Shown here piece by piece: positions 2,849-47,201 of a stretch of 64,000 nucleotides of DNA (position 1 is the stretch's first letter; the number at the start of each line of letters is the position of its first letter). The translations under genes were made by a program, and so were the position numbers. The notes beneath the pieces are model-generated. The model made no database searches, was not told where the DNA came from, and saw only the letters and a program-made list of their open reading frames with translations. The stretch is from the NCBI RefSeq assembly GCF_965641715.1, contig NZ_OZ282453.1. The stretch is one strand, 5' to 3'. Source of the DNA: Escherichia coli (lineage in GTDB: Bacteria; Pseudomonadota; Gammaproteobacteria; Enterobacterales; Enterobacteriaceae).

Positions 2849-3199
<351 letters not shown>

Positions 3200-3228
3200 G
3201 ATTTCGCTTAAGCGACATCCTGTTAAGA

Positions 3229-3258
3229 AGGGCTGGCCAATTGGCTGGCCCTTTTTTT
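3229..3258 (+). terminator. Rho-independent terminator of the rpsP-rplS operon
   Basis: GC-rich hairpin GGGCTGGCCAATTGGCTGGCCC followed by a T7 run directly after the rplS stop. Confidence 0.6.
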
Positions 3259-3275
3259 ATCTGTTTGCTCGTGTT

Positions 3276-3758
3276 TTAAGGGGTAGTAATCACCACTGCG
3301 ACGCGGCGGTTCTCGGCGCGGCCCTGGGCGGTCTTGTTACTGGCTATGGGATATTTTTTTCCTAAACCCTGTGCGGTGAGATTGCTGCGCGGAATTTGTC
3401 CACCCTTAGCCCATGCATCGGCCACGACATTCGCCCGTTTCAATGATAAGCCTTCGTTGTAACTGTCTTCACCATAGTTATCGGTGTGTCCATCCATACG
3501 GGCATGTGTTAGCCCTGTCGAGGCCAATTTGGCTGCCATGGTTTGGATCTGTTGCTGGCTTTCCGGGAGCAATTTGTAGTCATTTTTTGCGAACAGAATG
3601 GCATCTGATAAGCCCAGCGACCAGTCGCCGGCGGATTCAGTAAATCCATAAGATTGCATAGCGGCGACTTGCTCAGGAGTAAACTTTCCCTGAGGGGACT
3701 GGCAGCCAGTCAGTATTAGTGAGGTGAAAATCAGGGGTGCTACCAGGTGCTTTATCAT
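3276..3758 (-). CDS. yfiB: OmpA-family outer-membrane lipoprotein YfiB
   Basis: Lipoprotein signal (LILTGCQ) and C-terminal OmpA-like peptidoglycan-binding region; adjacent to dgcN and yfiR. Confidence 0.85.
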   Translation of the reverse strand: MIKHLVAPLIFTSLILTGCQSPQGKFTPEQVAAMQSYGFTESAGDWSLGLSDAILFAKNDYKLLPESQQQIQTMAAKLASTGLTHARMDGHTDNYGEDSYNEGLSLKRANVVADAWAKGGQIPRSNLTAQGLGKKYPIASNKTAQGRAENRRVAVVITTP

Positions 3759-3773
3759 ATCGATATATCCTTG

Positions 3774-5000
3774 TTATCTCACCAGCTTTTCGGCACGCTG
3801 GTGTTTGGCCTGATACATATTGTGATCGGCAAGCTCTTGTAATTTTTCCGCAGAGGCGTGCTCAATGGTCATCGCGTAACCAATGCTTAATGTCATGGTG
3901 GTCTGATGGCCATTATTAAGATCAAACGGGAGATTAAAGATTTGTGTCAGTGCTGAGCATATCTGCTGCACTTCAGATTCCGACTGTACATCATAGAGCA
4001 CCATAGCGAATTCATCGCCGCCCAGGCGGTATGCTTTATGTCGCAGCCCGCCAAATTCAGCTAACCGTTTTGCGATTTCAATCAAGACTCTATCGCCCGT
4101 CGCATGACCCCAGGTATCATTGATATATTTGAAATTATCGCCATCAAGAAATAGTAACGCCGACGTTTTTCGGGCATCGGAATTGTTCATCAACGTATTG
4201 ATGCCGCTACGAAACGCTGCGCGGTTAGCCAGCCCGGTTAATGGGTCATGTAGCGCGGTACGCAGAAGCTGCGCATTTTTGGCCTGTAAACGAAGCTGCC
4301 ACTCTTCCATTTCATCCAGCAGACTGTTGAAGTCGAGAGCGAAGCGGTGAAACTCAGCGATACGTTCTTCCGAAACTCGTCGGGAAAAATTGCGGTTGGA
4401 ACGCACATCATGTACGACATCGGTGATATTTTTCAGTGCTTCCACCAGGCCATTGTGCAAATGGCGGGTGAGGGTAATTGCGATTCCTGATGCCAGCAGA
4501 ATACAACCGGTCAGTACGGCGAGCGAAAACCAGATAAAATGGCTGATTGAACTGTCGCGAGCGGTTAAGCGTACTTCGCCAATGGTTTCACCATTGTGAC
4601 GAATCGGCTGAATGATGGGGGCAGGGAAGAGCCAGTGGCTTATGAAATTGCTGAAAGTATCGCCTGGATCCTTACGGGTGTAATGCCAGGATGCCAGAAT
4701 ATTTTGCTGCTTATCACGTACTTCTGCAGTTGAAAATTGCCCTTGCTGGCCCAGCGCTGCCAGTGTTTCAGTTGCTGCAGGGCCATCGGCAAAAACGACA
4801 GCTGCTTCCAGACTGTAAGTCATTGTTGCTGCTGTCAGTGCCAGGTTTTTTTGCGCGTACTGTTTCAGGGTCAGCACCGAGGTCACGGAAAGCAGCAACC
4901 AGATCAGCATCATAGTGATAAATATGCTGGTCATACTGATGTTGCGTAATGCTCTTTTAAACGTGGGGCGCTTATTAAGAGAATTATCGTTATCCATCAT
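3774..5000 (-). CDS. dgcN: Diguanylate cyclase DgcN (YfiN), membrane-anchored GGDEF protein
   Basis: 408 aa with N-terminal transmembrane/periplasmic region and C-terminal GGDEF domain (RLGGDEF motif). Confidence 0.85.
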
Positions 5001-8477: not shown

Positions 8478-9638
8478 TCAGGTTGGATCAACAGGCACTA
8501 CGTTCTCACTTGGGTAACAGCCCAATACCTTCATTGAACGGGTGATTTCCCCTAACTCTTTCAATGCTTTTTGCATTTCCGCTGATTCAAGATTGGCCTG
8601 AATATCCAGATAAAACATCTCTTCCCATGGATTACCGTGAATCGGGCGTGATTCCAGACGGGTCATAATCAGATTGTGGTTGCGCAGTACCAGCAACGCT
8701 TCAACCAGCGCACCGGCTTGTTGCCCGGTCGCCATTAACAACGTCGTTTTCGCCGGAACCTGATCAGACACGTTAATGGCTTTACGCGCCAACACCACAA
8801 ATCGGGTGAAGTTTTGTCGCTGATTCGCTTCAATCCGCTCCAGTACCTGCAAACCGTACAAAGTGCCGCCAGCTTCGCTTCCCAACGCAGCAACATGCGG
8901 TGATTTTGCCTGTGCAACCTTTTCCATTGCCGCAGACGTACTTTCGGTATATTCAATCTTCCAGTGCGGATAACGATTAAGGAATTTGCTGCATTGCTGG
9001 AATGGCTGCGGATGGCTGTAGACCGTATTGATGGTGGATAAATCAGTAGTGCCGGAGACCAACAAACAATGGTCGATAGTTAACGTCATCTCGCCAACAA
9101 TCGACAAGCTGGTATGTTGCAGCAGATCGTAAACGTCATTTATGGCACCGGAGCTGGTATTTTCAATCGGTACGACGGCATAGTCGGCCTGGCCGGTTTC
9201 CACCTGATTAAAAATATCGGCAAATTTGGCGCAGCCACTTTCAATGAATTGCTCAAAGTGACGGGCAGCATACTGGCGCGCCGCAAGATGGGAATAAGAA
9301 CCTTTGGGGCCGAGAAAAGCGATGCGTGCTGAGTGCGGATTAATTTTATTGAGATGTTGTTGGAGCAAAGCCTGCTGAGTTAATACGGAATCTTCAATGA
9401 TGAGCTGGAACAGGCGAGTAATGTAATGGGCGTCCAGATGGTGCGCTTTACCGAGCGTAATTAATCTTTCCAGTAAATCGCGTTCACGATCAATATCACG
9501 TACCGGGCGATGCGAGAGCAGTTTGGCTTTTCCCACCTCGACGGCCAGTTCGCGCCGCTCTGCGAGTAATGCTAATAATTTTTCATCCAGCGCGCTGATT
9601 TTCTCTCGCAGCGCCAGTAACGGGTTTTCCGATGTCAT
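8478..9638 (-). CDS. pheA: Bifunctional chorismate mutase / prephenate dehydratase (P-protein)
   Basis: 386 aa beginning [22 protein letters not shown]...; chorismate mutase, prephenate dehydratase and ACT domains. Confidence 0.95.
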
Positions 9639-9660
9639 AGTGTTGCCTTTTTGTTATCAA

Positions 9661-9690
9661 TAAAAAAGGCCCCCCGATTTGGGAGGCCTT
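9661..9690 (-). terminator. pheA attenuator (leader terminator)
   Basis: GC-rich hairpin plus T-run on the minus strand between pheL and pheA. Confidence 0.6.
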
Positions 9691-9736
9691 ATTGTTCGTC
9701 TTCGCATTCTGTTTCATACGACGAAACGCCTCCCAT

Positions 9737-9784
9737 TCAGGGGAAGGTAAAAAAGAATGCGAAGAAAAACGGTGTGTGTTTCAT
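9737..9784 (-). CDS. pheL: pheA operon leader peptide (Phe-rich)
   Basis: 15-codon ORF MKHTPFFFAFFFTFP with seven Phe codons, upstream of the attenuator hairpin; absent from the ORF track because it is short. Confidence 0.85.
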   Translation of the reverse strand: MKHTPFFFAFFFTFP

Positions 9785-9838
9785 GTTTGTTTCCTTAAGT
9801 GACTTTAGTACAGTACCCGTACTGTTTTCACGCTGTCA

Positions 9839-9865
9839 ACAAAAAACGCGCCCGAAGGTGCGTTG
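9839..9865. repeat. Prophage attL direct repeat (int-proximal)
   Basis: ACAAAAAACGCGCCCGAAGGTGCGTTG; matches 45803-45829 at 26 of 27 positions. Confidence 0.6.
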
Positions 9866-9951
9866 TAAAACCCACTGAATTCAATGTTTTCCCTTTGTTT
9901 TCAGTGGGTTTTGTTATTGGTGGGGGGTACTGATTACCCTATAAAACCCAC

Positions 9952-10974
9952 TTATGTGGATGAAATGTGGATGCCTCCTTTTAACGGATTAAGTGAAATT
10001 GCATCCTGGAGGAAATCAGGAGCGAGGTGCGCATAGGTCATAGTTTGCTGGATCGTGGCGTGCCCCATAATTCGCTGGAGCGTAAGTATATTTCCTCCAT
10101 TAATCATAAAGTGAGCTGCAAAGGTATGGCGTAGAACATGTACTGCCTGCCCTTTTGGTAGATCAGGTTTAACACTGCGAAGCACCTTGCGATATTCCTC
10201 ATAATTGACGTCAAACAAAAGGCCGGATTTCTTTGTTTTGATCTCGCTAACAACTTCATCAGAGACAGGAATAATTCGAACTTTTCCGTTTTTAGTTTTG
10301 TTAAACGTCACGCGGTTATTGATGATGTGTTCCGCGCGCAGATTTTTCGCTTCTCCCCATCTCGCACCAGTACTGAGACAAAGTAGCGTAATCCGCCGGG
10401 CATCACCGCTTACTGCATCCAGTAATTTGGCAATTTCTTCCGTGGTGAGATACGTCATTTCGGGTGATTTTCGTTTCAAAGAGGGGAGGGCGCGGAGCGG
10501 ATTTTCTCCGTGAAATTCCCCGGCATTTGCCAGGAGTGTAAACATTCCTCCGAGATCCGACTCATCACGCCGAACAGTAGACTCTTTTACTCCCAAAGAT
10601 AAACGGGAGCTTCGATAAGCGGCCATGAAACGAGCATTAATCTGGCTAACCCTTGGATCATTCATTTCTTTGATGATTTTTTTCAACCTGGTTAGAACGC
10701 CGTTAGCATATGGCTTATTGCGTCCACCCAATTCCCACCATAACGGAAGCAGATCTGAGAGATGACGTTGCTCTGTTGGCTTTTCAAGCCATTCCTTATC
10801 GTGCATGTGGCTGAGAACATAACGCTCAAAGGCCACTGCATCTGCCTTTTTCTTAAAAATCCGCTGAATCCGACGTCCACTTCGGCCACGCGGTCTAACA
10901 TCCACTTTATACCGTCCACCATCGAGTGCTTTAATTGCCATTGGCAAGCCCTCCGGTGAAACGAGGAAAGACAT
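9952..10974 (-). CDS. int: Phage tyrosine integrase
   Basis: 340 aa with C-terminal tyrosine recombinase catalytic region (HxLRHT...Y); immediately inside attL. Confidence 0.9.
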   Translation of the reverse strand: MSFLVSPEGLPMAIKALDGGRYKVDVRPRGRSGRRIQRIFKKKADAVAFERYVLSHMHDKEWLEKPTEQRHLSDLLPLWWELGGRNKPYANGVLTRLKKIIKEMNDPRVSQINARFMAAYRSSRLSLGVKESTVRRDESDLGGMFTLLANAGEFHGENPLRALPSLKRKSPEMTYLTTEEIAKLLDAVSGDARRITLLCLSTGARWGEAKNLRAEHIINNRVTFNKTKNGKVRIIPVSDEVVSEIKTKKSGLLFDVNYEEYRKVLRSVKPDLPKGQAVHVLRHTFAAHFMINGGNILTLQRIMGHATIQQTMTYAHLAPDFLQDAISLNPLKGGIHISST

Positions 10975-27583: not shown

Positions 27584-27907
27584 GTGAGCACTATTCAAAC
27601 AGGGATCACAGAGCAGGTTATTGCGTGGCTCTTTGACCACCTGCCAACGGTGTATGCAGCAGGCGCGGCAGTCAGCATTTCCGCGCTGATGAGTCTTTAT
27701 GACGGACGAACGCTGGTTCAGACCGTAACGGGATCGCTGGCGTGCGGCGTTCTTGCCATGGCCGTGGCCGGGTCGTTGCGCTTCTTCGGAGTTCCTGAAG
27801 ATGCCGTGACGTTTTTCGGCGCATCTATCGGTTTTATGGGCGCAGAAAAAGCACGCGACAAGATCATTGCCGCCTTTAACCGCATAACCCAAAAGGGAGA
27901 TGAATAA
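27584..27907 (+). CDS. Putative holin
   Basis: About 107 aa from GTG 27584 (G-rich RBS) with 2-3 predicted transmembrane helices; directly upstream of the endolysin gene. Confidence 0.5.
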   Translation: MSTIQTGITEQVIAWLFDHLPTVYAAGAAVSISALMSLYDGRTLVQTVTGSLACGVLAMAVAGSLRFFGVPEDAVTFFGASIGFMGAEKARDKIIAAFNRITQKGDE

Positions 27908-27961
27908 GTCGCAGGCTTAAAGCCGGTAATCACCATAAAAATCATTCACAGAGGTGACGAA

Positions 27962-28507
27962 ATGAAATCGAAAGACGAAATTTTTGATGTCGTTCTTGGC
28001 AAAGAAGGCGGCTACGTCAATCACCCGGATGACAGAGGCGGTCCGACAAAATGGGGCATCACTGAAAAGGTGGCACGGGCGCACGGATACCGTGGCGATA
28101 TGCGTGATTTAACTCGCGGACAGGCACTGGAAATCCTTGAAGCTGATTACTGGTACGGACCGCGTTTTGATCAGATAGCGAAGCTGTCCCCGGATATTGC
28201 CGCAGAACTGTGTGACACCGGAGTAAATATGGGGCCGTCTGTGGCAACCAGAATGCTTCAGCGCTGGCTGAACGTATTCAATCAGGGCGGGAAACTGTAT
28301 CCCGATATGGACACGGACGGACGCACTGGCCCACGCACGATTAACGCATTGCGTGCATATCTGGAAAAACGCGGTCGGGACGGCGAGATGGTGATGTTGT
28401 CTGCAATGAACTGTACGCAGGGCGAACGCTATCTGGAGCTGGCAGAGAAACGCGAGGCTAACGAGTCGTTTGTCTATGGCTGGATGAAAGAACGTGTAGC
28501 CCTGTAA
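27962..28507 (+). CDS. Endolysin (GH108-type lysozyme with peptidoglycan-binding domain)
   Basis: N-terminal EIFDVVLGKEGGYVNHPDDRGGPTKWGIT is typical of glycoside hydrolase family 108 lysozymes. Confidence 0.8.
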   Translation: MKSKDEIFDVVLGKEGGYVNHPDDRGGPTKWGITEKVARAHGYRGDMRDLTRGQALEILEADYWYGPRFDQIAKLSPDIAAELCDTGVNMGPSVATRMLQRWLNVFNQGGKLYPDMDTDGRTGPRTINALRAYLEKRGRDGEMVMLSAMNCTQGERYLELAEKREANESFVYGWMKERVAL

Positions 28508-28547
28508 CCTCATGAACTGCAACAAGTGAATAACGAGGACAACAACC

Positions 28548-29015
28548 ATGCTGAAAACTGATTCCCTGCGTGAAGCCATGACCCGTTCATGCCGATGGTG
28601 TCAGGCCAACCCGGAAAAATTCACCATTTTCGTGGAGAGCGGCAACATTGAAACGACCGGAGAAACGCCCTCGTTTGTTTACCGCTATCAGATGGTGATG
28701 TTTGTCATGGATTACGCCGGAGAGCTGGACGACCTCACGCTGCCGCTGCTGGCGTGGTTATCCGAAAATCAGCCACAGTTGTTGCTTAATCCGGAGTGTA
28801 ATCAGGACATCAAATTTTCCGCCGTTATCAATGACGATGACAGCGCCGATCTCCTGTTTACGCTCCCCCTGCGGGAACGCGTTCGCATCACGCGCAACAG
28901 TCAGGGGACACCGCAGGCAGAACACCTGCCGGAGCCAAAACCCCGCCTGCCCTCCTCCGAAGGCGACTGGTCGCATGTATTCCAGGATGTGACGTGGGGT
29001 GAAAGCGATGGATAA
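28548..29015 (+). CDS. Tail completion protein (gpR-like)
   Basis: 155 aa; position and size match P2 R. Confidence 0.6.
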   Translation: MLKTDSLREAMTRSCRWCQANPEKFTIFVESGNIETTGETPSFVYRYQMVMFVMDYAGELDDLTLPLLAWLSENQPQLLLNPECNQDIKFSAVINDDDSADLLFTLPLRERVRITRNSQGTPQAEHLPEPKPRLPSSEGDWSHVFQDVTWGESDG

Positions 29016-42626: not shown

Positions 42627-43868
42627 ATGATTCGGCAACAATCATCACCCACCACGCGCGTAATCTCACCCCTGCGCCGTTCTCCCGCCACGGCGACAAC
42701 AAAAAGCAGTAACCCCCTCCGCACGCACATGCGACCATGCCGCACAGGGAGGGAGCAGATGACCGACACCACCATGCAATTGCTCAGTCAGGGCACAGAC
42801 CCCGTGAAAATGCCGGATTTTGATATTCTCGCGGAGGGTAAAACGCTGTCAGGCGTGGCAGAGCGCCTGATGAGCCTGTCAGTGACCGACAACCGGGGAT
42901 TTGAAGCGGACCAGCTCACCATCACGCTGGATGATGCGGATGGTCAGTTGCAGCTACCGCCACGGGGCGCGCGCCTGACGGTTCTCATTGGCTGGAAAGG
43001 AGAACCGCTGACAGAAAAAGGCACTTACATTGTTGATGAAATCGCTCACGAAGGACCGCCGGACAGGCTGACTGTTTCAGCCAGAAGCGCAGATTTTCGG
43101 GATGAATTTAACGTTAAACGTGAGGTGTCCTGGCATGATGTGACCGTTGAGCGTGTGGTATCCGCCATCGCTCATCGGTACGGTCTGAAACCGCAAATCA
43201 GCGAAATGCTGATGGATATCGAAATCGACCACGCCGACCAGACCGAAGAAAGCGACATGTCCTTTCTTACGCGCATGGCGGAAATGCTGGGCGCAATCAC
43301 CACGGTAAAAAGCGGTAATCTGTTATTCATTATGCCAGGCGGTGGCGTGAACGCACAGGGCCAGCCGTTGCCCTCGTTCGCCATCACGCGCAGCAGTGGC
43401 GATCGCCATCAGTTCCGCATTGCTGACCGCGAAGCGTATACGGGGGTACGCGCTTACTGGCTTGATCTTAATTACGGGAAAAAGAAAAAAGTCAGCGTGA
43501 AACGCCGCAAACCGCCAAAACCCAAAAAGGAGAAAAGCAGCAGCCGTGAAGGTGATTATATGGAAGGTGCGGAAGGCAATGTGTTTGTGTTACGCAAGAC
43601 TTATCAGAACGAGCAGGCAGCAAGACGCGCAGCGGCGGCAAAGTGGCAGCAACTACAACGCGGAGCCGCATCATTCTCCATCACGCTGACACGTGGACGA
43701 GCAGAACTCTACCCCGAAATGCATGGCACGGTAACAGGATTTAAAAGCGAGATTGATAATCAGGACTGGATTATTGCGAAAGCCGAGCACACCATTGATA
43801 ACAGTGGCTTTACCACGCAGCTTGAGCTTGAAGCAAAAATCCCGGAATGGATAGCAGAAACAGAGTGA
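42627..43868 (+). CDS. Tail/late control protein D
   Basis: gpD-family features; the true start is probably an internal Met near 42759; divergent from the FI gene. Confidence 0.8.
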   Translation: MIRQQSSPTTRVISPLRRSPATATTKSSNPLRTHMRPCRTGREQMTDTTMQLLSQGTDPVKMPDFDILAEGKTLSGVAERLMSLSVTDNRGFEADQLTITLDDADGQLQLPPRGARLTVLIGWKGEPLTEKGTYIVDEIAHEGPPDRLTVSARSADFRDEFNVKREVSWHDVTVERVVSAIAHRYGLKPQISEMLMDIEIDHADQTEESDMSFLTRMAEMLGAITTVKSGNLLFIMPGGGVNAQGQPLPSFAITRSSGDRHQFRIADREAYTGVRAYWLDLNYGKKKKVSVKRRKPPKPKKEKSSSREGDYMEGAEGNVFVLRKTYQNEQAARRAAAAKWQQLQRGAASFSITLTRGRAELYPEMHGTVTGFKSEIDNQDWIIAKAEHTIDNSGFTTQLELEAKIPEWIAETE

Positions 43869-43910
43869 GCAACTTAGAATAGCGGCAGCACCACGTTAAG
43901 GGAGGTCGCT

Positions 43911-44171
43911 ATGTTCCGTTGTCCGCTTTGTGGCGCATCTGCCCGTATCCGCACCAGTCGTCCGGAAAATGATTCAAACACCGTGCGGCAAAAGTATTAC
44001 CAGTGTAACAATCTGGAATGCGGCGTATGCTTCTCAACACTGGAAGCTTTCCATAAATTCACATCGAAACACGCCTCCGGCGTTCACTCTTCAGAAGGTA
44101 TCCCGTGGCATGAGCTGCCAGCTTCACACAGGGGAAACAATCAGATGAGTTTGCCTTTATCTCAGAATTAA
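43911..44171 (+). CDS. ogr: Late transcription activator, Ogr/Delta zinc-finger family
   Basis: MFRCPLCGASARIRTSR...YYQCNNLECGVCF has the four-Cys Ogr signature. Confidence 0.85.
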   Translation: MFRCPLCGASARIRTSRPENDSNTVRQKYYQCNNLECGVCFSTLEAFHKFTSKHASGVHSSEGIPWHELPASHRGNNQMSLPLSQN

Positions 44172-44259
44172 CAGGCAGAATTGCCGGAGTAACAAAAAAG
44201 CGATAGATTACGCGCGGGTGCCTTTCGGCTGATGGTCGGAGGGAATACCCGAAGGCCAG

Positions 44260-44496
44260 ATGTGGAAAGGCCCCGGAAAACATTTCTGTTTAACCGAGGC
44301 CCTAACACTTCTTACCTTCGCAAGTAGAAGGTTAGCGCCTCTCCTCTCAGGAGACAAGCGTTATGACGCAAATTCCGTTAAAAACCCTGTTACTTTGCAT
44401 AACTGCGGTAGCGATAATCTGGATCCTCCACACATCACCGTGCGAGTTACGATTCAGGTTTGCTGGCACGGAAATTGCGGCATTCTTACTATGTAA
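44260..44496 (+). CDS. Putative mok-like overlapping frame of the hok locus
   Basis: 78-codon frame that starts upstream of, and overlaps almost all of, the hok-like ORF in another frame, as mok does in hok/sok loci. Confidence 0.35.
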   Translation: MWKGPGKHFCLTEALTLLTFASRRLAPLLSGDKRYDANSVKNPVTLHNCGSDNLDPPHITVRVTIQVCWHGNCGILTM

Positions 44497-44503
44497 TAAG
44501 TAA
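44363..44503 (+). CDS. Hok/Gef-family type I toxin (46 aa)
   Basis: MTQIPLKTLLLCITAVAIIWILHTSPCELRFRFAGTEIAAFLLCNK: single TM helix then the Hok signature C-E-hydrophobic-R...G..E-hydrophobic-A-A-F. Confidence 0.65.
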   Translation: MTQIPLKTLLLCITAVAIIWILHTSPCELRFRFAGTEIAAFLLCNK

Positions 44504-44591
44504 GATAACCGCGACGGGGGAGTAATCCCCCGTCAATCGGTTGCTAAGGTTGGTCGAAACGGCATCCTATCTCACAGACATGAACAACAAA

Positions 44592-44623
44592 CCCGCAGCG
44601 TAAAAACTGCGGGTTTTCTTTTT
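44592..44623 (+). terminator. Rho-independent terminator downstream of the hok locus
   Basis: CCCGCAGCGTAAAAACTGCGGG hairpin followed by a T-rich run. Confidence 0.5.
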
Positions 44624-44670
44624 GCTACCCTCACAAATGAGGGCACCATACATAAGCAATAGGCATAACA

Positions 44671-44705
44671 GATCGATGCAATAAATCCGATCGATAAAAA
44701 CGATC
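44671..44705. promoter_or_regulatory. Cluster of three GATC (Dam) sites upstream of com-methyltransferase
   Basis: GATC at about 44671, 44689 and 44702 within 35 bp, some 50-80 bp upstream of the com-like start. Confidence 0.45.
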
Positions 44706-44752
44706 GATTTGTTATCATATCGGCAGCAGTAACCACACAAGAGGTGCCGCAA

Positions 44753-44950
44753 ATGACGCAAAATGTACGATGCAAAAATTGCAACAAACTACTTGCCCGC
44801 GCCTCATTTCACTACATTGAAATAAAATGTCCGCGCTGCAAAACACTTAACCAGATAACGAGAGCCATCGAGCACCCCACACACATGAGGAGTTATGACC
44901 GTGGGGATCGCAATCCAGCACCAACCAGCACATACGCCAGAACACACTAA
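44753..44950 (+). CDS. Com-like zinc-finger translational regulator
   Basis: MTQNVRCKNCNKLLARASFHYIEIKCPRCKTLNQ...EHPT resembles phage Mu Com as recalled; 3' end overlaps the methyltransferase start; track ORF starts at GTG 44744. Confidence 0.75.
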   Translation: MTQNVRCKNCNKLLARASFHYIEIKCPRCKTLNQITRAIEHPTHMRSYDRGDRNPAPTSTYARTH

Positions 44951-45701
44951 GGTTTATCAGACTGACAATGTCACGCTCTGTTGTGGGAATGCACTGGAAA
45001 TATTGCCGCTGATTGAGCCAGAAAGCATTGATGCCTTAATCACTGACCCGCCTTACAGTTCGGGTGCGACACACAAGGCCGGACGCACCAATCAGGGCAG
45101 CCATGCAAAATATCTGAACGGCGAGAACCTTCACCGCTTTGATGGGTTCGCGGGTGAAAACATGGACGCCCGTTCGTGGGCTTACTGGACACAATTATGG
45201 ATGGCACAGGCACACCGCGCAGTCAGGCCAGGCGGTTATGCCATGGTATTTACTGACTGGCGACAACTACCAGCTTTAACCGATGCGTTTCAGGCCAGTG
45301 GCTTTACATGGCGCGGCATCATTGCGTGGAACAAGGGGAGGGGGTCACGAACACCACATACCGGGTATTTCCGGCATCAGTGCGAATACATCGTCTGGGG
45401 CAGCAAAGGCCATTTAGATAAATCGCCTTCGGGGCCGTTCGACGGCTGCATGACGTACCCGGTTATCCCGTCAAAGAAAATGCACCCGACCGGAAAACCA
45501 GAAGAACTAATGGCGGAACTGGTCAGGACTGTGAATAGTGGCGGAACAGTCCTTGATCCTTTTATGGGGTCAGGGACAACGGGTGTGGCTGCACTGAAAG
45601 CAGGGCGAAAATTTATTGGTATAGAAACCAGTGATCATTATTTTGAGGTAGCAGCGCAGCGGCTTCGGGGGACTATTACCACAACCATTTCGGCTACATA
45701 A
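44895..45701 (+). CDS. DNA methyltransferase with DPPY motif (N6-adenine or N4-cytosine), no restriction partner seen
   Basis: 268 aa; N-terminal ...ESIDALITDPPYSS... catalytic motif and C-terminal FMGSGTTGVAA AdoMet-binding motif; start overlaps com. Confidence 0.85.
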   Translation: MTVGIAIQHQPAHTPEHTKVYQTDNVTLCCGNALEILPLIEPESIDALITDPPYSSGATHKAGRTNQGSHAKYLNGENLHRFDGFAGENMDARSWAYWTQLWMAQAHRAVRPGGYAMVFTDWRQLPALTDAFQASGFTWRGIIAWNKGRGSRTPHTGYFRHQCEYIVWGSKGHLDKSPSGPFDGCMTYPVIPSKKMHPTGKPEELMAELVRTVNSGGTVLDPFMGSGTTGVAALKAGRKFIGIETSDHYFEVAAQRLRGTITTTISAT

Positions 45702-45802
45702 GACAAAGCCCGCATTTTTTGCGGGCTTGTATATCATTACTGATGTGGACAGTTTGTGGATGTTTATAAGAAATAAGCTAATAGAAACAATTTGTTAGCT
45801 TT

Positions 45803-45829
45803 ACAAAAAACGCGCCCGAAGGCGCGTTG
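45803..45829. repeat. Prophage attR direct repeat, coincident with the raiA terminator
   Basis: ACAAAAAACGCGCCCGAAGGCGCGTTG; forms a perfect GCGCC-TTCG-GGCGC hairpin plus T-run on the minus strand after raiA. Confidence 0.6.
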
Positions 45830-45851: not shown

Positions 45852-46247
<396 letters not shown>

Positions 46248-46463: not shown

Positions 46464-47201
46464 TTATGTATTGCTGCTGTTTGCGGCGATGATTTTCGCT
46501 ACTTTTTCAGCTTGCGCATTCATCTGCATCTGACGGTATGCATTTTCCATCAGCGGCAGCGCATCACGCGTAGCCTGGGTATCCGGGTAGTCGCGCAACA
46601 TGCCTTCTACGCGGTTAACGACGGCAACCCATGCGCCACGTTCTGTATAGTACTCGGCCACGGAGTATTCATATTTCGCCAGACGATCTTTCAGGAATAC
46701 CAGACGTTTGGTGGCATCGGTGGTGTACTGACTGTTTGGATAGCCGCGCACCAGTTTGGAAAAGTCACTAAACGCAGCTCGTGCATGTTGAGGATCGCGA
46801 TCGCTACGGTCAACGCCAAAGAACCCTTGCAGCGCACTGTCATCCAGCGCCATATTGGTCAGGCCACGCATGTACATGACATAATCGATATTCGGATGGG
46901 TCGGGTTAAGGCGAATAAAACGATCGATGGCAGCCTGCGCTAACGGCAAATCGGCGTTTTTATAGTAGGCGTAGATGAGATCCAGCTGCACCTGCTGCGA
47001 ATACGGACCAAACGGATAGCGATTATCTAACGCTTCCAGTTGCGTTATTGCCTGTCTCCAGTTACCGTCCTGCAGCTTTTGTTGTGCAGTCGCGTAAATT
47101 TCATTTGGCGGATTATCAGGTACTTCTTCCTTTGACCCCGAGCAACCCGCCAAAAACAGGCTTAGTGTGGCGGCTGCCACCAGATATTTCATGCGCGTCA
47201 T
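46464..47201 (-). CDS. bamD: Outer-membrane protein assembly factor BamD
   Basis: 245 aa lipoprotein (LFLAGCSG) with TPR-like repeats. Confidence 0.9.

What the first reader, a model, noticed from the sequence alone, without database searches (positions are those of the whole stretch)
44660..45701. Mu com/mom-style control architecture driving a DNA methyltransferase
The locus reproduces the phage Mu mom arrangement: a Com-like zinc-finger gene whose 3' end overlaps the downstream start, and three GATC sites clustered in the upstream promoter region. In Mu such sites give Dam-dependent, OxyR-sensitive transcription and Com activates translation. Here the controlled gene is not Mom but a DPPY-motif methyltransferase with no nearby restriction endonuclease. 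That implies a tightly regulated, probably late-expressed, self-methylation function to evade host restriction.
Basis: partly seen in the sequence, partly recalled or inferred. Interest (0 to 1): 0.7.

Follow-up and report, generated by a model that had tools for sequence, protein, structure and literature searches.

The report
Com-controlled prophage DNA methyltransferase cassette
A P2-like prophage of E. coli carries, next to its attachment site, a DNA methyltransferase gene wired to the same control parts that phage Mu uses for its mom gene (three Dam sites in an OxyR-type operator, a Com zinc-finger gene, a Com-binding RNA hairpin and a hairpin hiding the start codon); it is real and well supported, but it is a new member of a kind of phage anti-restriction cassette that is already described and routinely annotated.

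Summary
At 44659-45701 there are, in order:
- an operator with GATC at 44671, 44689 and 44702, spaced 18 and 13 bp exactly as in Mu mom (agn43: 19 and 13 bp);
- an extended -10 promoter-like site;
- a 65-codon com gene (Pfam Zn_ribbon_Com);
- a Com-target hairpin that is the only match in the window to the published SELEX Com motif;
- a CCCCAC/GTGGGG hairpin enclosing the Shine-Dalgarno sequence and start codon;
- a 266/268-aa beta-class DPPY methyltransferase with no endonuclease partner.

The module is the last cargo of a 36-kb P2-like prophage, about 100 bp from attR. It occurs in 170 of 5426 complete E. coli genomes and in the isolated phage Chuche.

Across about 80 com loci the same cassette precedes five unrelated DNA-modifying enzyme classes.

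The most likely mechanism is Mu-like: Dam/OxyR-gated transcription plus Com-dependent translation of a potentially toxic methyltransferase that protects phage DNA from restriction.

Two things are not shown. Late timing is unsupported, because no Mu C site and no Ogr box is present. The enzyme's specificity is unknown.

Com with a methyltransferase is already published for Mu-like prophages and for the P2-like phage KS5, so novelty is modest.

The parts
44589..44616 (+). Intrinsic-terminator-like hairpin that closes the upstream hok/sok unit and insulates the cassette from read-through
   Evidence: Terminator scan, 10-bp stem plus T-run.
44659..44708 (.). OxyR-type, Dam-sensitive operator: ATAG (44659-44662) followed by three GATCGAT repeats, with GATC at 44671, 44689 and 44702 (spacing 18 and 13 bp)
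   Evidence: Same spacing as Mu mom (L003 1160/1178/1191) and close to agn43 of K-12 (19/13). Alignment with Mu and agn43 shows the ATAG and GATC columns invariant. The spaced pattern occurs once against 0.01 expected. It is kept in 23 of 27 relatives collected through the methyltransferase alone, including one of only 77% methyltransferase identity. OxyR binding itself is inferred.
44691..44718 (+). Sigma-70 promoter-like site: TCGATA, 16-bp spacer, extended -10 TGtTATCAT (44710-44718). It overlaps GATC II and III; the predicted transcript start is near 44725
   Evidence: Promoter scan, 9 of 12 matches with TG; coordinates checked. The extended -10 is kept in Chuche (TGcTATCAT) and L139 (TGgTATCAT). 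A consensus match only, with no transcript data.
44753..44950 (+). com: 65-aa CCCC zinc-ribbon protein, predicted RNA-binding translational activator; Shine-Dalgarno AGAGGT at 44740-44745
   Evidence: Pfam PF10122 1.3e-11; PHROG 13819; 59.5% identical to Mu Com over residues 3-43; same coordinates as the RefSeq CDS in UMNF18.
44861..44876 (+). Predicted Com-binding RNA hairpin inside the 3' part of com: A-GAGC-[CATCGA]-GCAC-C, with the loop motif CC(N)3GAG
   Evidence: 44860-44876 is the only window match to the SELEX bipartite motif GAGNNCC(N)3GAGNNCC (0.11 expected). It is the top hit in the window of a covariance model trained on other taxa (14.8 bits, E about 1). The same hairpin is found in 58 of 75 distinct com loci, with covarying stem pairs. 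This copy has an A.A mismatch at one stem position.
44875..44906 (+). Translation-inhibition hairpin: CCCCAC (44875-44880) pairs with GTGGGG (44901-44906). The 20-nt loop holds the Shine-Dalgarno GAGGAG (44887-44892) and ATG 44895; GTG 44901 lies in the 3' arm
   Evidence: Fold of 44855-44915: -17.5 kcal/mol, z = -2.4. The same stem occurs in front of C5 methyltransferases (L004, L011) and as CCCAC/GTGGG in front of Mu mom.
44901..45701 (+). Beta-class (motif IV before motif I) amino-methyltransferase, 266 aa from GTG 44901 (268 aa from ATG 44895); DPPY at 45045-45056, FMGSG at 45561-45575
   Evidence: Pfam PF01555; PHROG 67 at 1.5e-83; nearest solved structures 5hek/5hfj ('DpnA', H. pylori) at 1e-20 and CcrM. 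Support for the GTG start: Shine-Dalgarno spacing of 8 nt against 2 nt for the ATG, relative L139 has no ATG, and 266-aa forms are annotated elsewhere.
45706..45728 (.). GC-rich hairpin AAGCCCGCATTTTTTGCGGGCTT directly after the stop codon; probable end of the transcription unit
   Evidence: Flagged by the terminator scan on the minus strand only; sequence checked. The T-tail on the plus strand is weak.
45803..45822 (.). attR core ACAAAAAACGCGCCCGAAGG (the second copy, attL, is at 9839-9858). It places the cassette inside the prophage, about 100 bp from its right end
   Evidence: Exact 20-bp repeat between the two prophage ends. The prophage lies between pheL/pheA and raiA. In phage Chuche the same module lies between ogr/hok and int.

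Best explanation
This is a Mu-type 'com-mod' expression cassette carried as cargo by a P2-like temperate phage. Each step is marked as shown or inferred.

1. Transcription starts at an extended -10 promoter. Its -35 and spacer are covered by an OxyR-type operator containing three Dam sites. OxyR bound to unmethylated or hemimethylated GATCs would block the promoter, and full Dam methylation would release it. The sequence similarity to Mu and agn43 is shown; OxyR binding and its effect are inferred.

2. The transcript first encodes Com. Shown: ORF, Pfam match and Shine-Dalgarno sequence.

3. The methyltransferase start (most likely GUG 44901) and its Shine-Dalgarno sequence are locked in a hairpin at 44875-44906. 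The predicted fold is shown; its inhibitory effect is inferred.

4. Com binds the small hairpin immediately 5' of it (44861-44876, loop CC-AUC-GAG) and opens the inhibitory hairpin, so methyltransferase is made only once Com has accumulated. The motif match and family-wide covariation are shown; binding and activation are inferred from Mu.

5. The enzyme, most probably an N6-adenine methyltransferase (DPPY), methylates replicating phage DNA. Progeny then resist restriction in the next host. The double lock keeps a potentially harmful enzyme off otherwise. This step is inferred from Mu mom and from the Hia5/Hin1523 experiments.
For: Com identity.

GATC array: spacing identical to Mu and near-identical to agn43, with a shared upstream ATAG. 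It is improbable by chance.
- It is conserved while the bases between the sites diverge: L139, Mu, L012, L014.
- It is present only in enterobacterial (Dam+) com loci, whichever effector follows.

Com hairpin: unique SELEX-motif match (motif from PMC6483171) and best covariance-model hit in the window.
- Stem covariation over 43 distinct variants: inner variable pair paired in 36 of 43, outer in 40 of 43, each with four or more pair types.

Inhibitory hairpin: z = -2.4, with the same stem in front of three different effector classes in enterics.
- Other lineages have unrelated stems whose 3' arm contains the effector start codon.
- Effector-start regions are more structured than com-start regions in the same loci: median z -1.31 against -0.24, Wilcoxon p = 5e-4.

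Linkage: all 27 close methyltransferase relatives carry com.

No endonuclease partner is annotated.

Literature: mom regulation by Dam, OxyR, C and Com (PMC3378877). Com-linked methyltransferases of Mu-like prophages protect DNA from many restriction enzymes (PMC3299994).
Against: - Nothing here is experimental.
- The Com hairpin copy has an A.A mismatch in its 4-bp stem, and as a 16-nt motif it scores only E about 1.
- The inhibitory-hairpin stem is invariant among close relatives, so that stem has no covariation of its own.
- No Mu C-type activator site, no C/Mor gene and no Ogr box are present, so lytic or late timing is not explained.
- In a Dam+ lysogen the operator should be methylated and the promoter open, which fits the 'silent until lysis' picture poorly.
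- Natural alleles lacking the whole GATC array (L136-L138) or the middle site (L118) exist, so the operator is dispensable.
- Methyltransferase specificity, and N6-adenine versus N4-cytosine chemistry, are unresolved. Pfam PF01555 covers both, and N4-cytosine enzymes are among the PDB hits.
Confidence: 0.7

Rival explanations
1. Lysogenic-conversion switch. The operator lies over an activator-independent extended -10 promoter, so the cassette would behave like agn43 in lysogens: heritable ON/OFF states set by competition between Dam and OxyR. The result would be a phase-variable DNA methyltransferase that changes the host methylome in a subpopulation, rather than a late lytic function.
For: - The operator is nearly superimposable on agn43.
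- The promoter-like site has TGtTATCAT and needs no obvious activator.
- No C site and no Ogr box are present.
- The cassette is insulated by terminators on both sides.
- The literature states that it is unknown whether mom phase-varies (PMC2909390).
Against: - The Com/hairpin lock is the hallmark of enzymes kept silent until the cell is doomed (PMC3378877).
- Related prophage methyltransferases are silent in lysogens (PMC5778455).
- No expression or methylation data exist for this locus.
- The promoter call is only a consensus match.
Confidence: 0.17
2. The methyltransferase is the modification half of a restriction-modification or other defence system, and the small upstream gene is its controller protein.
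For: Small regulatory ORFs overlapping methyltransferase genes also occur in restriction-modification systems; the enzyme belongs to a family common in Type II systems.
Against: - No endonuclease gene lies between ogr and attR or is annotated anywhere in the prophage.
- The small protein is a Com zinc ribbon, not a helix-turn-helix controller protein.
- The same cassette precedes Mom and other solitary enzymes.
Confidence: 0.03
3. Com acts here as a DNA-binding transcription factor, as its RefSeq name says, and the RNA hairpins are incidental.
For: RefSeq product name 'Com family DNA-binding transcriptional regulator'.
Against: - Biochemistry shows that Com binds an RNA hairpin with a CC(N)2-3GAG loop (PMC6483171).
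- That hairpin is present here and covaries across the family.
- The name is an automated label.
Confidence: 0.03
4. The GATC cluster is an inherited relic of the Mu-like donor module and has no regulatory role in this phage.
For: Operator-less and two-site alleles exist (L136-L138, L118). The C5-methyltransferase cassettes keep only two of the three sites.
Against: The three sites and their exact spacing persist in 23 of 27 relatives and in L139, where the bases between the sites have changed. They overlap the promoter-like site.
Confidence: 0.07

Closest known systems
Phage Mu com-mom operon
   Same: - Com zinc ribbon (59.5% identity over the ribbon).
- com 3' end overlapping the effector start.
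- Com hairpin immediately 5' of a CCCAC/GTGGG hairpin that holds the Shine-Dalgarno sequence and a GUG start.
- Three GATC sites spaced 18 and 13 bp, preceded by ATAG.
   Different: - The effector is a Rossmann-fold beta-class methyltransferase, not the Mom acyltransferase-fold enzyme.
- There is no C-activator dyad and no C/Mor gene.
- The operator lies 27 bp closer to com and overlaps the -35 of an extended -10 promoter.
- The host element is a P2-like phage, not a transposable one.
com + non-specific m6A methyltransferases of Mu-like prophages (Hin1523 of FluMu, Nma1821 of Pnm1, Hia5) and B3 orf47/orf48 (PMC3299994)
   Same: A Com homologue followed by a DNA methyltransferase in place of mom. 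These are shown experimentally to methylate adenine massively and to block many restriction enzymes. The same Com hairpin is present in the Haemophilus loci (L075).
   Different: Those enzymes are Dam-related alpha-class (clusters 0 and 1); this one is beta-class. They have no GATC array upstream and sit in Mu-like, not P2-like, genomes.
P2-like phages with Com + N4/N6 methylase: Burkholderia KS5 gp21/gp20 (PMC3091744), Stenotrophomonas Smp131, Ralstonia P2-like phages
   Same: Same phage type, same Pfam family of methyltransferase (PF01555; 42-47% identity), com overlapping the methyltransferase start, Com hairpin present (L006, L008).
   Different: Hosts without the enterobacterial Dam/OxyR logic and without the 18/13 GATC array. 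The cassette sits at other genome positions (next to Q or among tail genes). The inhibitory-hairpin stem sequence differs.
agn43 (flu) Dam/OxyR phase-variation switch of E. coli K-12
   Same: ATAG-N8/9-GATC-N14/15-GATC-N9-GATC operator with conserved columns. The operator lies over or next to the promoter, so that OxyR would repress by occlusion.
   Different: It controls an autotransporter and has no translational layer. Heritable switching is demonstrated for agn43 only.
com + C5 cytosine methyltransferase of E. coli and Citrobacter Mu-like prophages
   Same: The closest Com (65% identity), an identical CCCCAC-N20-GTGGGG hairpin, a GTG-GGG start, the 13-bp GATC pair at the same distance from com.
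   Different: The effector is a 350-aa C5 methyltransferase. Only two GATC sites are present. The carrier is a Mu-like prophage.
M.EcoGII (PMC5778455)
   Same: A prophage-borne, solitary, beta-class DPPY adenine methyltransferase of E. coli that is silent in the lysogen and harmful when expressed.
   Different: It is 349 aa and sits on a different prophage. The paper mentions no com, and no relationship was tested here. My recollection of a com link was not borne out.

Membership tests
Mu-type com-controlled DNA-modification cassette | Com CCCC zinc-ribbon protein encoded as the first ORF | tested here: met
   PF10122 at 1.3e-11; PHROG 13819 at 6e-17; CKNC...CPRC present.
Mu-type com-controlled DNA-modification cassette | The com 3' end overlaps the effector start | tested here: met
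   Overlap of 50 nt (GTG) or 56 nt (ATG). Overlap was seen in most of about 80 com loci.
Mu-type com-controlled DNA-modification cassette | Short RNA hairpin with a CC(N)2-3GAG loop just 5' of the inhibitory hairpin (the Com target) | tested here: met
   Unique SELEX-motif match at 44860-44876; top covariance-model hit; covariation across the family. One A.A mismatch in this copy. Com binding itself was not tested.
Mu-type com-controlled DNA-modification cassette | Translation-inhibition hairpin sequestering the Shine-Dalgarno sequence and start codon of the effector | tested here: met
   CCCCAC/GTGGGG at 44875-44906, -17.5 kcal/mol, z = -2.4; same stem as Mu and the C5 loci. Its function is inferred.
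Mu-type com-controlled DNA-modification cassette | Dam-sensitive OxyR operator with three GATC sites | tested here: met
   Spacing 18/13, identical to Mu. OxyR binding cannot be tested with these tools.
Mu-type com-controlled DNA-modification cassette | Weak promoter dependent on the late activator C (Mor/C family), which gives late timing | tested here: not met
   No TTAT-N6-ATAA dyad, 27 bp less space between GATC III and com, no C/Mor gene annotated in the prophage, no Ogr box either. The promoter-like site is an extended -10.
Mu-type com-controlled DNA-modification cassette | The effector is Mom | tested here: not met
   The effector is a PF01555 methyltransferase. Mom forms a separate cluster.
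Beta-class N6-adenine/N4-cytosine DNA methyltransferases (Pfam N6_N4_Mtase) | Motif IV (D/S)PPY N-terminal to motif I FxGxG, and a match to PF01555 | tested here: met
   DPPY at 51-54, FMGSG at 223-227; PF01555 at 6.7e-20 and 1.6e-10.
Beta-class N6-adenine/N4-cytosine DNA methyltransferases (Pfam N6_N4_Mtase) | Membership of a named equivalog with known specificity (CcrM, YhdJ) | tested here: not met
   NCBIfam scores of 87 and 77 bits against cut-offs of 830 and 292. The specificity remains unknown.
Restriction-modification system | Cognate endonuclease gene adjacent to the methyltransferase | tested here: not met
   Neighbours are ogr, hok/sok, com, attR and raiA; none is annotated in the prophage.
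agn43-type Dam/OxyR phase-variation switch | Three GATC sites inside an OxyR site that overlaps the promoter region | tested here: met
   Alignment with the K-12 agn43 operator; overlap with the -35 and spacer.
agn43-type Dam/OxyR phase-variation switch | Heritable ON/OFF expression states with differential GATC methylation | not testable with these tools
   Needs single-cell reporters or methylation-state assays.

The most novel reading that the evidence does not exclude
The cassette is not simply a silent late anti-restriction gene. Instead it would be an agn43-like epigenetic switch. The Dam/OxyR operator lies directly over an activator-independent extended -10 promoter, so lysogens would carry a phase-variable DNA methyltransferase. 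That would be a Dam/OxyR-driven 'phasevarion' in E. coli, with Com and the inhibitory hairpin acting as a threshold filter. The natural operator-deletion alleles (L136-L138) would then be locked variants. A wider corollary follows: the Com hairpin plus inhibitory hairpin is an uncurated, portable riboregulator (no Rfam family) that marks DNA-modifying enzymes. Unknown ORFs behind com, such as the ATPase plus acetyltransferase-like protein of L069, could be new DNA-modification enzymes.
Probability: 0.15. Interest if true: 0.65.

Novelty: new member of a known kind. Interest (0 to 1): 0.35.

Why it matters
It shows that Mu's elaborate mom control is a portable cassette: a Dam/OxyR operator, Com, the Com hairpin and a start-codon hairpin. 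The cassette has been recombined, right at the GUG-GG start, onto at least five unrelated DNA-modifying enzymes and moved into P2-like phages. About 3% of complete E. coli genomes carry this version.

Practically, it predicts that these widespread 'orphan' methyltransferases are conditionally expressed. Lysogen methylomes could therefore miss them, and they may shape phage host range across restriction barriers.

Phage Chuche, an isolated phage with the same module, would make the predictions directly testable.

It does not open a new category. Com-linked methyltransferases and their anti-restriction role are already published.

Tried and rejected
- **M.EcoGII link.** I recalled that M.EcoGII was preceded by com. 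The paper (PMC5778455) describes a different 349-aa enzyme and never mentions com or Mu, so I dropped this.
- **Ogr-dependent late promoter.** TGT-N12-ACA gives 12 hits in the window against 14.9 expected. None lies upstream of com; the hit at 44828 is inside com. There is no support for Ogr control.
- **First Com alignment (A1).** It was too divergent for the genome scan (one search failed), so I repeated the scan with a narrower alignment.
- **B3 orf48.** I expected it to be the same class as this enzyme. It clusters with the Dam-like alpha-class group instead.
- **Accession search.** WP_000215762 and WP_032340735 found no paper. The O145 methylome paper says nothing about this locus.
- **Rfam.** No family covers the Com hairpin or the inhibitory hairpin; the only hit nearby is sok.
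- **Covariance model of the 16-nt Com hairpin.** It ranks the expected site first, but at E about 1, so it is not significant on its own. Its training alignment (A4) left out mismatch-containing variants, so the 99% pairing is inflated. The unfiltered figures are 36 of 43 and 40 of 43.
- **Structure prediction of the methyltransferase.** Not run, because it would not resolve specificity.
Full report
**Where the locus lies.** The window is 99.9% identical over the locus to the chromosome of E. coli UMNF18. Genes 42627-44171 are P2-type gpD and ogr. A hok/sok unit follows (hok ORF 44363-44503; Rfam sok at 47 bits) and ends in a terminator at 44589-44616. Host raiA, bamD and rluD follow from 45852. 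A 20-bp direct repeat, ACAAAAAACGCGCCCGAAGG, at 9839-9858 and 45803-45822 marks attL and attR of a 36-kb P2-like prophage inserted between pheL/pheA and raiA. The finding is therefore the last gene pair of the prophage, about 100 bp from attR. In the isolated phage Chuche the same pair (93.8% nucleotide identity) lies between ogr/hok and int, so it is phage cargo and not host DNA.

**Checking the observation.** All parts are present.
- com is 44753-44950 and encodes 65 aa with CKNC and CPRC. It matches Pfam Zn_ribbon_Com at 1.3e-11 and PHROG 'gpCom control of modification' at 6e-17, and is 59.5% identical to Mu Com over the ribbon.
- The downstream ORF, 44895/44901-45701, matches Pfam N6_N4_Mtase. 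DPPY is at residues 51-54 and FMGSG at 223-227, the beta-class motif order.
- com overlaps the downstream ORF by 50-56 nt.
- GATC occurs at 44671, 44689 and 44702, each time as GATCGAT. The window averages one GATC per 323 bp. The spaced pattern occurs once against 0.01 expected.
- No endonuclease is adjacent or annotated in the prophage.

**The operator.**
- Mu's three mom GATCs are spaced 18 and 13 bp, exactly as here. The agn43 operator of K-12 has 19 and 13 bp.
- An alignment of this window, Chuche, Mu, agn43 and two com-C5-methyltransferase loci shows invariant GATC columns and a shared upstream ATAG.
- A GATC pair 13 bp apart within one OxyR half-site is also the unit described for the P22 gtr switch (PMC2909390).
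- Among about 80 com loci from one genome per species, the array occurs only in enterobacterial loci (window, Chuche, Mu, L012, L014). It appears as a two-site form in L004 and L011. This holds whichever enzyme follows.
- In a set collected through the methyltransferase alone, and so not biased towards GATC, all 27 close relatives have com and 23 keep the three sites. One of these, L139, has only 77% methyltransferase identity and changed bases between the sites.
- One allele lost the middle site. Three alleles (L136-L138) have a 31-bp deletion of the entire array.
- I infer a Dam-sensitive OxyR operator. Binding itself was not testable.

**The promoter.** The only sigma-70-like site is TCGATA-16-TGtTATCAT at 44691-44718. 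It overlaps GATC II and III, and the extended -10 is kept in Chuche and L139. Compared with Mu, 27 bp between GATC III and com are missing. These include Mu's C-activator region. No C/Mor gene is annotated in the prophage, and no Ogr box (TGT-N12-ACA) lies upstream. So one of Mu's control layers is absent, namely the late activator described in PMC3378877.

**The translational layer.**
- Published work shows that Com binds a short hairpin with a CC(N)2-3GAG loop next to the translation-inhibition structure, which holds the mom GUG start in its stem. The SELEX bipartite motif is NGAGNNCC(N)2-3GAGNNCCNN (PMC6483171).
- The window sequence 44860-44876, GAGAGCCATCGAGCACC, matches it. It is the only match in 64 kb on both strands, against 0.11 expected.
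- Immediately after it, CCCCAC (44875-44880) pairs with GTGGGG (44901-44906) around a loop containing GAGGAG and ATG 44895. The fold is -17.5 kcal/mol with z = -2.4.
- Mu has CCCAC-N11-GTGGG at the same place. The E. coli and Citrobacter com-C5-methyltransferase loci have the identical CCCCAC-N20-GTGGGG with a GTG-GGG start.
- GTG 44901 is the likelier start. It lies 8 nt from the Shine-Dalgarno sequence, against 2 nt for the ATG. L139 has no ATG. 266-aa versions are annotated elsewhere.

**Family-wide support.**
- In 58 of 75 distinct com loci the motif A-NNGC-[C N1-5 GA]-GCN'N'-C lies just after the zinc-ribbon codons.
- Over 43 distinct variants the two variable stem positions are paired in 36 and 40 cases, each using four or more pair types. 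On a subset without the mismatch variants, all covariation measures exceed the shuffles and the slid controls. That subset is filtered, so its 99% pairing figure is inflated.
- A covariance model trained without the window's type puts its best window hit at 44861-44876, but at E about 1.
- The window's copy, like those of L004, L011, L035 and L073, has one non-pair in the stem.
- In other lineages, hairpins with unrelated stem sequences contain the effector start codon in their 3' arm. Examples are L015, L052, L008, L059, L046 and L009.
- Effector-start regions fold more stably than com-start regions of the same loci: median z -1.31 against -0.24, p = 5e-4. That test used mononucleotide shuffles and automated start choice.
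- Rfam has no family for this element.

**What follows com elsewhere.** The ORFs downstream of com fall into five unrelated groups:
- Dam-like alpha-class methyltransferases (B3 orf48 type);
- the Hia5/Hin1523 type;
- beta-class PF01555 enzymes (this window, Chuche, Smp131, Ralstonia, Shewanella, Acinetobacter and a Desulfovibrionaceae genome);
- C5 cytosine methyltransferases;
- Mom.

Methyltransferase relatives below about 57% identity mostly lack com. The cassette thus behaves as a portable control unit joined to its effector at the start codon.

**The enzyme.** The nearest solved structures are small beta-class adenine methyltransferases: H. pylori 'DpnA' 5hek at 1e-20, then CcrM. N4-cytosine enzymes score lower. 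The protein is below every NCBIfam equivalog cut-off. The closest phage relatives outside E. coli are Bordetella BPP-1 Bpm (54%) and methyltransferases of P2-like Ralstonia, Burkholderia and Stenotrophomonas phages. DPPY favours N6-adenine, but specificity is unknown.

**Mechanism and rivals.** The best-supported explanation (confidence 0.7) is a Mu-like two-lock system. Dam/OxyR gates transcription, and translation depends on Com. Together they control a solitary methyltransferase that protects phage DNA from restriction, as shown for the Com-linked enzymes of Mu-like prophages (PMC3299994). The main rival (0.17) is an agn43-like phase-variable methyltransferase in lysogens. It is suggested by the self-sufficient-looking promoter under the operator and by the lack of any late-activator site. 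A restriction-modification remnant, Com acting as a DNA-binding regulator, and a non-functional relic array are each unlikely.

**Novelty.**
- Com followed by a methyltransferase is published for B3, FluMu, Pnm1 and Hia5 (PMC3299994).
- For a P2-like phage with a PF01555 methylase it is published for KS5 gp21/gp20 (PMC3091744), and it is annotated in Smp131.
- RefSeq labels this exact pair in 170 of 5426 complete E. coli genomes.
- What I did not find described in the papers I searched: Mu's complete Dam/OxyR operator and CCCAC/GTGGG hairpin transplanted into an E. coli P2-like phage without the C layer; the com-C5-methyltransferase cassettes; and the family-wide covariation of the Com hairpin.

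This is a new member of a known kind, of moderate interest.

Noticed in passing
L004 2437-3707; L005 2988-4194; L011 (Citrobacter braakii) about 2936-4207: In E. coli and Citrobacter Mu-like prophages the closest Com homologue (65% identity) is followed by a 350-aa C5 cytosine methyltransferase. Its GTG start lies in the identical CCCCAC-N20-GTGGGG hairpin, and two GATC sites 13 bp apart lie upstream. I did not find this effector class for the Com cassette in the papers I read.
   Followed up: partly
L136-L138 (IMG/VR P2-like contigs), about 200 nt upstream of the methyltransferase match; L118: Natural alleles of the same cassette in which the whole three-GATC array is replaced by 'acaAATCAATttg' (a 31-bp deletion between the GATCGAT repeats) while the extended -10 is kept. 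L118 has lost only the middle GATC (now GAAC). These are ready-made operator mutants.
   Followed up: partly
L069 (Neisseria MAG) 2992-4465; L037 (Acinetobacter sp. ANC 4558) 2992-4027: Here com and its hairpin are followed by proteins that are not known DNA-modifying enzymes. L069 has a 404-aa ORF of PHROG 11143 (unknown function) with an ABC-ATPase-like N-terminal part and an acetyltransferase-like C-terminal part. L037 has a 307-aa ORF with no PHROG match. Both are candidates for new Com-controlled DNA-modification enzymes.
   Followed up: partly
window 44216-44503 and 44589-44616: A hok/sok-type toxin-antitoxin unit lies between ogr and com: a Hok/Gef-family ORF at 44363-44503, an Rfam sok match at 44216-44374 (47 bits, below the gathering score of 59), and a terminator. 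Phage Chuche has the same unit.
   Followed up: partly
window 9839-9858 and 45803-45822: A 20-bp att core, ACAAAAAACGCGCCCGAAGG, equivalent to the raiA terminator region, bounds a 36-kb P2-like prophage inserted between pheL/pheA and raiA.
   Followed up: yes
L092 (UMNF18 record) 9522-10109 and 27620-28894, inside the prophage part of the window: The P2-like prophage carries a recombinase (invertase-type) gene between oppositely oriented tail-fibre and assembly genes, suggesting an invertible host-range segment. It also carries ParM/partition genes, suggesting plasmid-like maintenance capacity.
   Followed up: no
RefSeq annotation of window 44753-44950: The automated product name 'Com family DNA-binding transcriptional regulator' conflicts with the biochemical literature, in which Com is an RNA-binding translational activator (PMC6483171).
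   Followed up: yes
window 44906-44909: A fourth GATC overlaps the 3' arm of the start-codon hairpin (GTGGGGATC) and is kept in the close relatives. No role is proposed.
   Followed up: no
window between raiA (45852-46193) and bamD (46464-47201), compared with L001 7948-9285: UMNF18 has an IS4 insertion between raiA and bamD that the window lacks, and several prophage genes are frameshifted in UMNF18 but intact here (for example gpD, 413 aa). The window therefore comes from a closely related but different strain.
   Followed up: no
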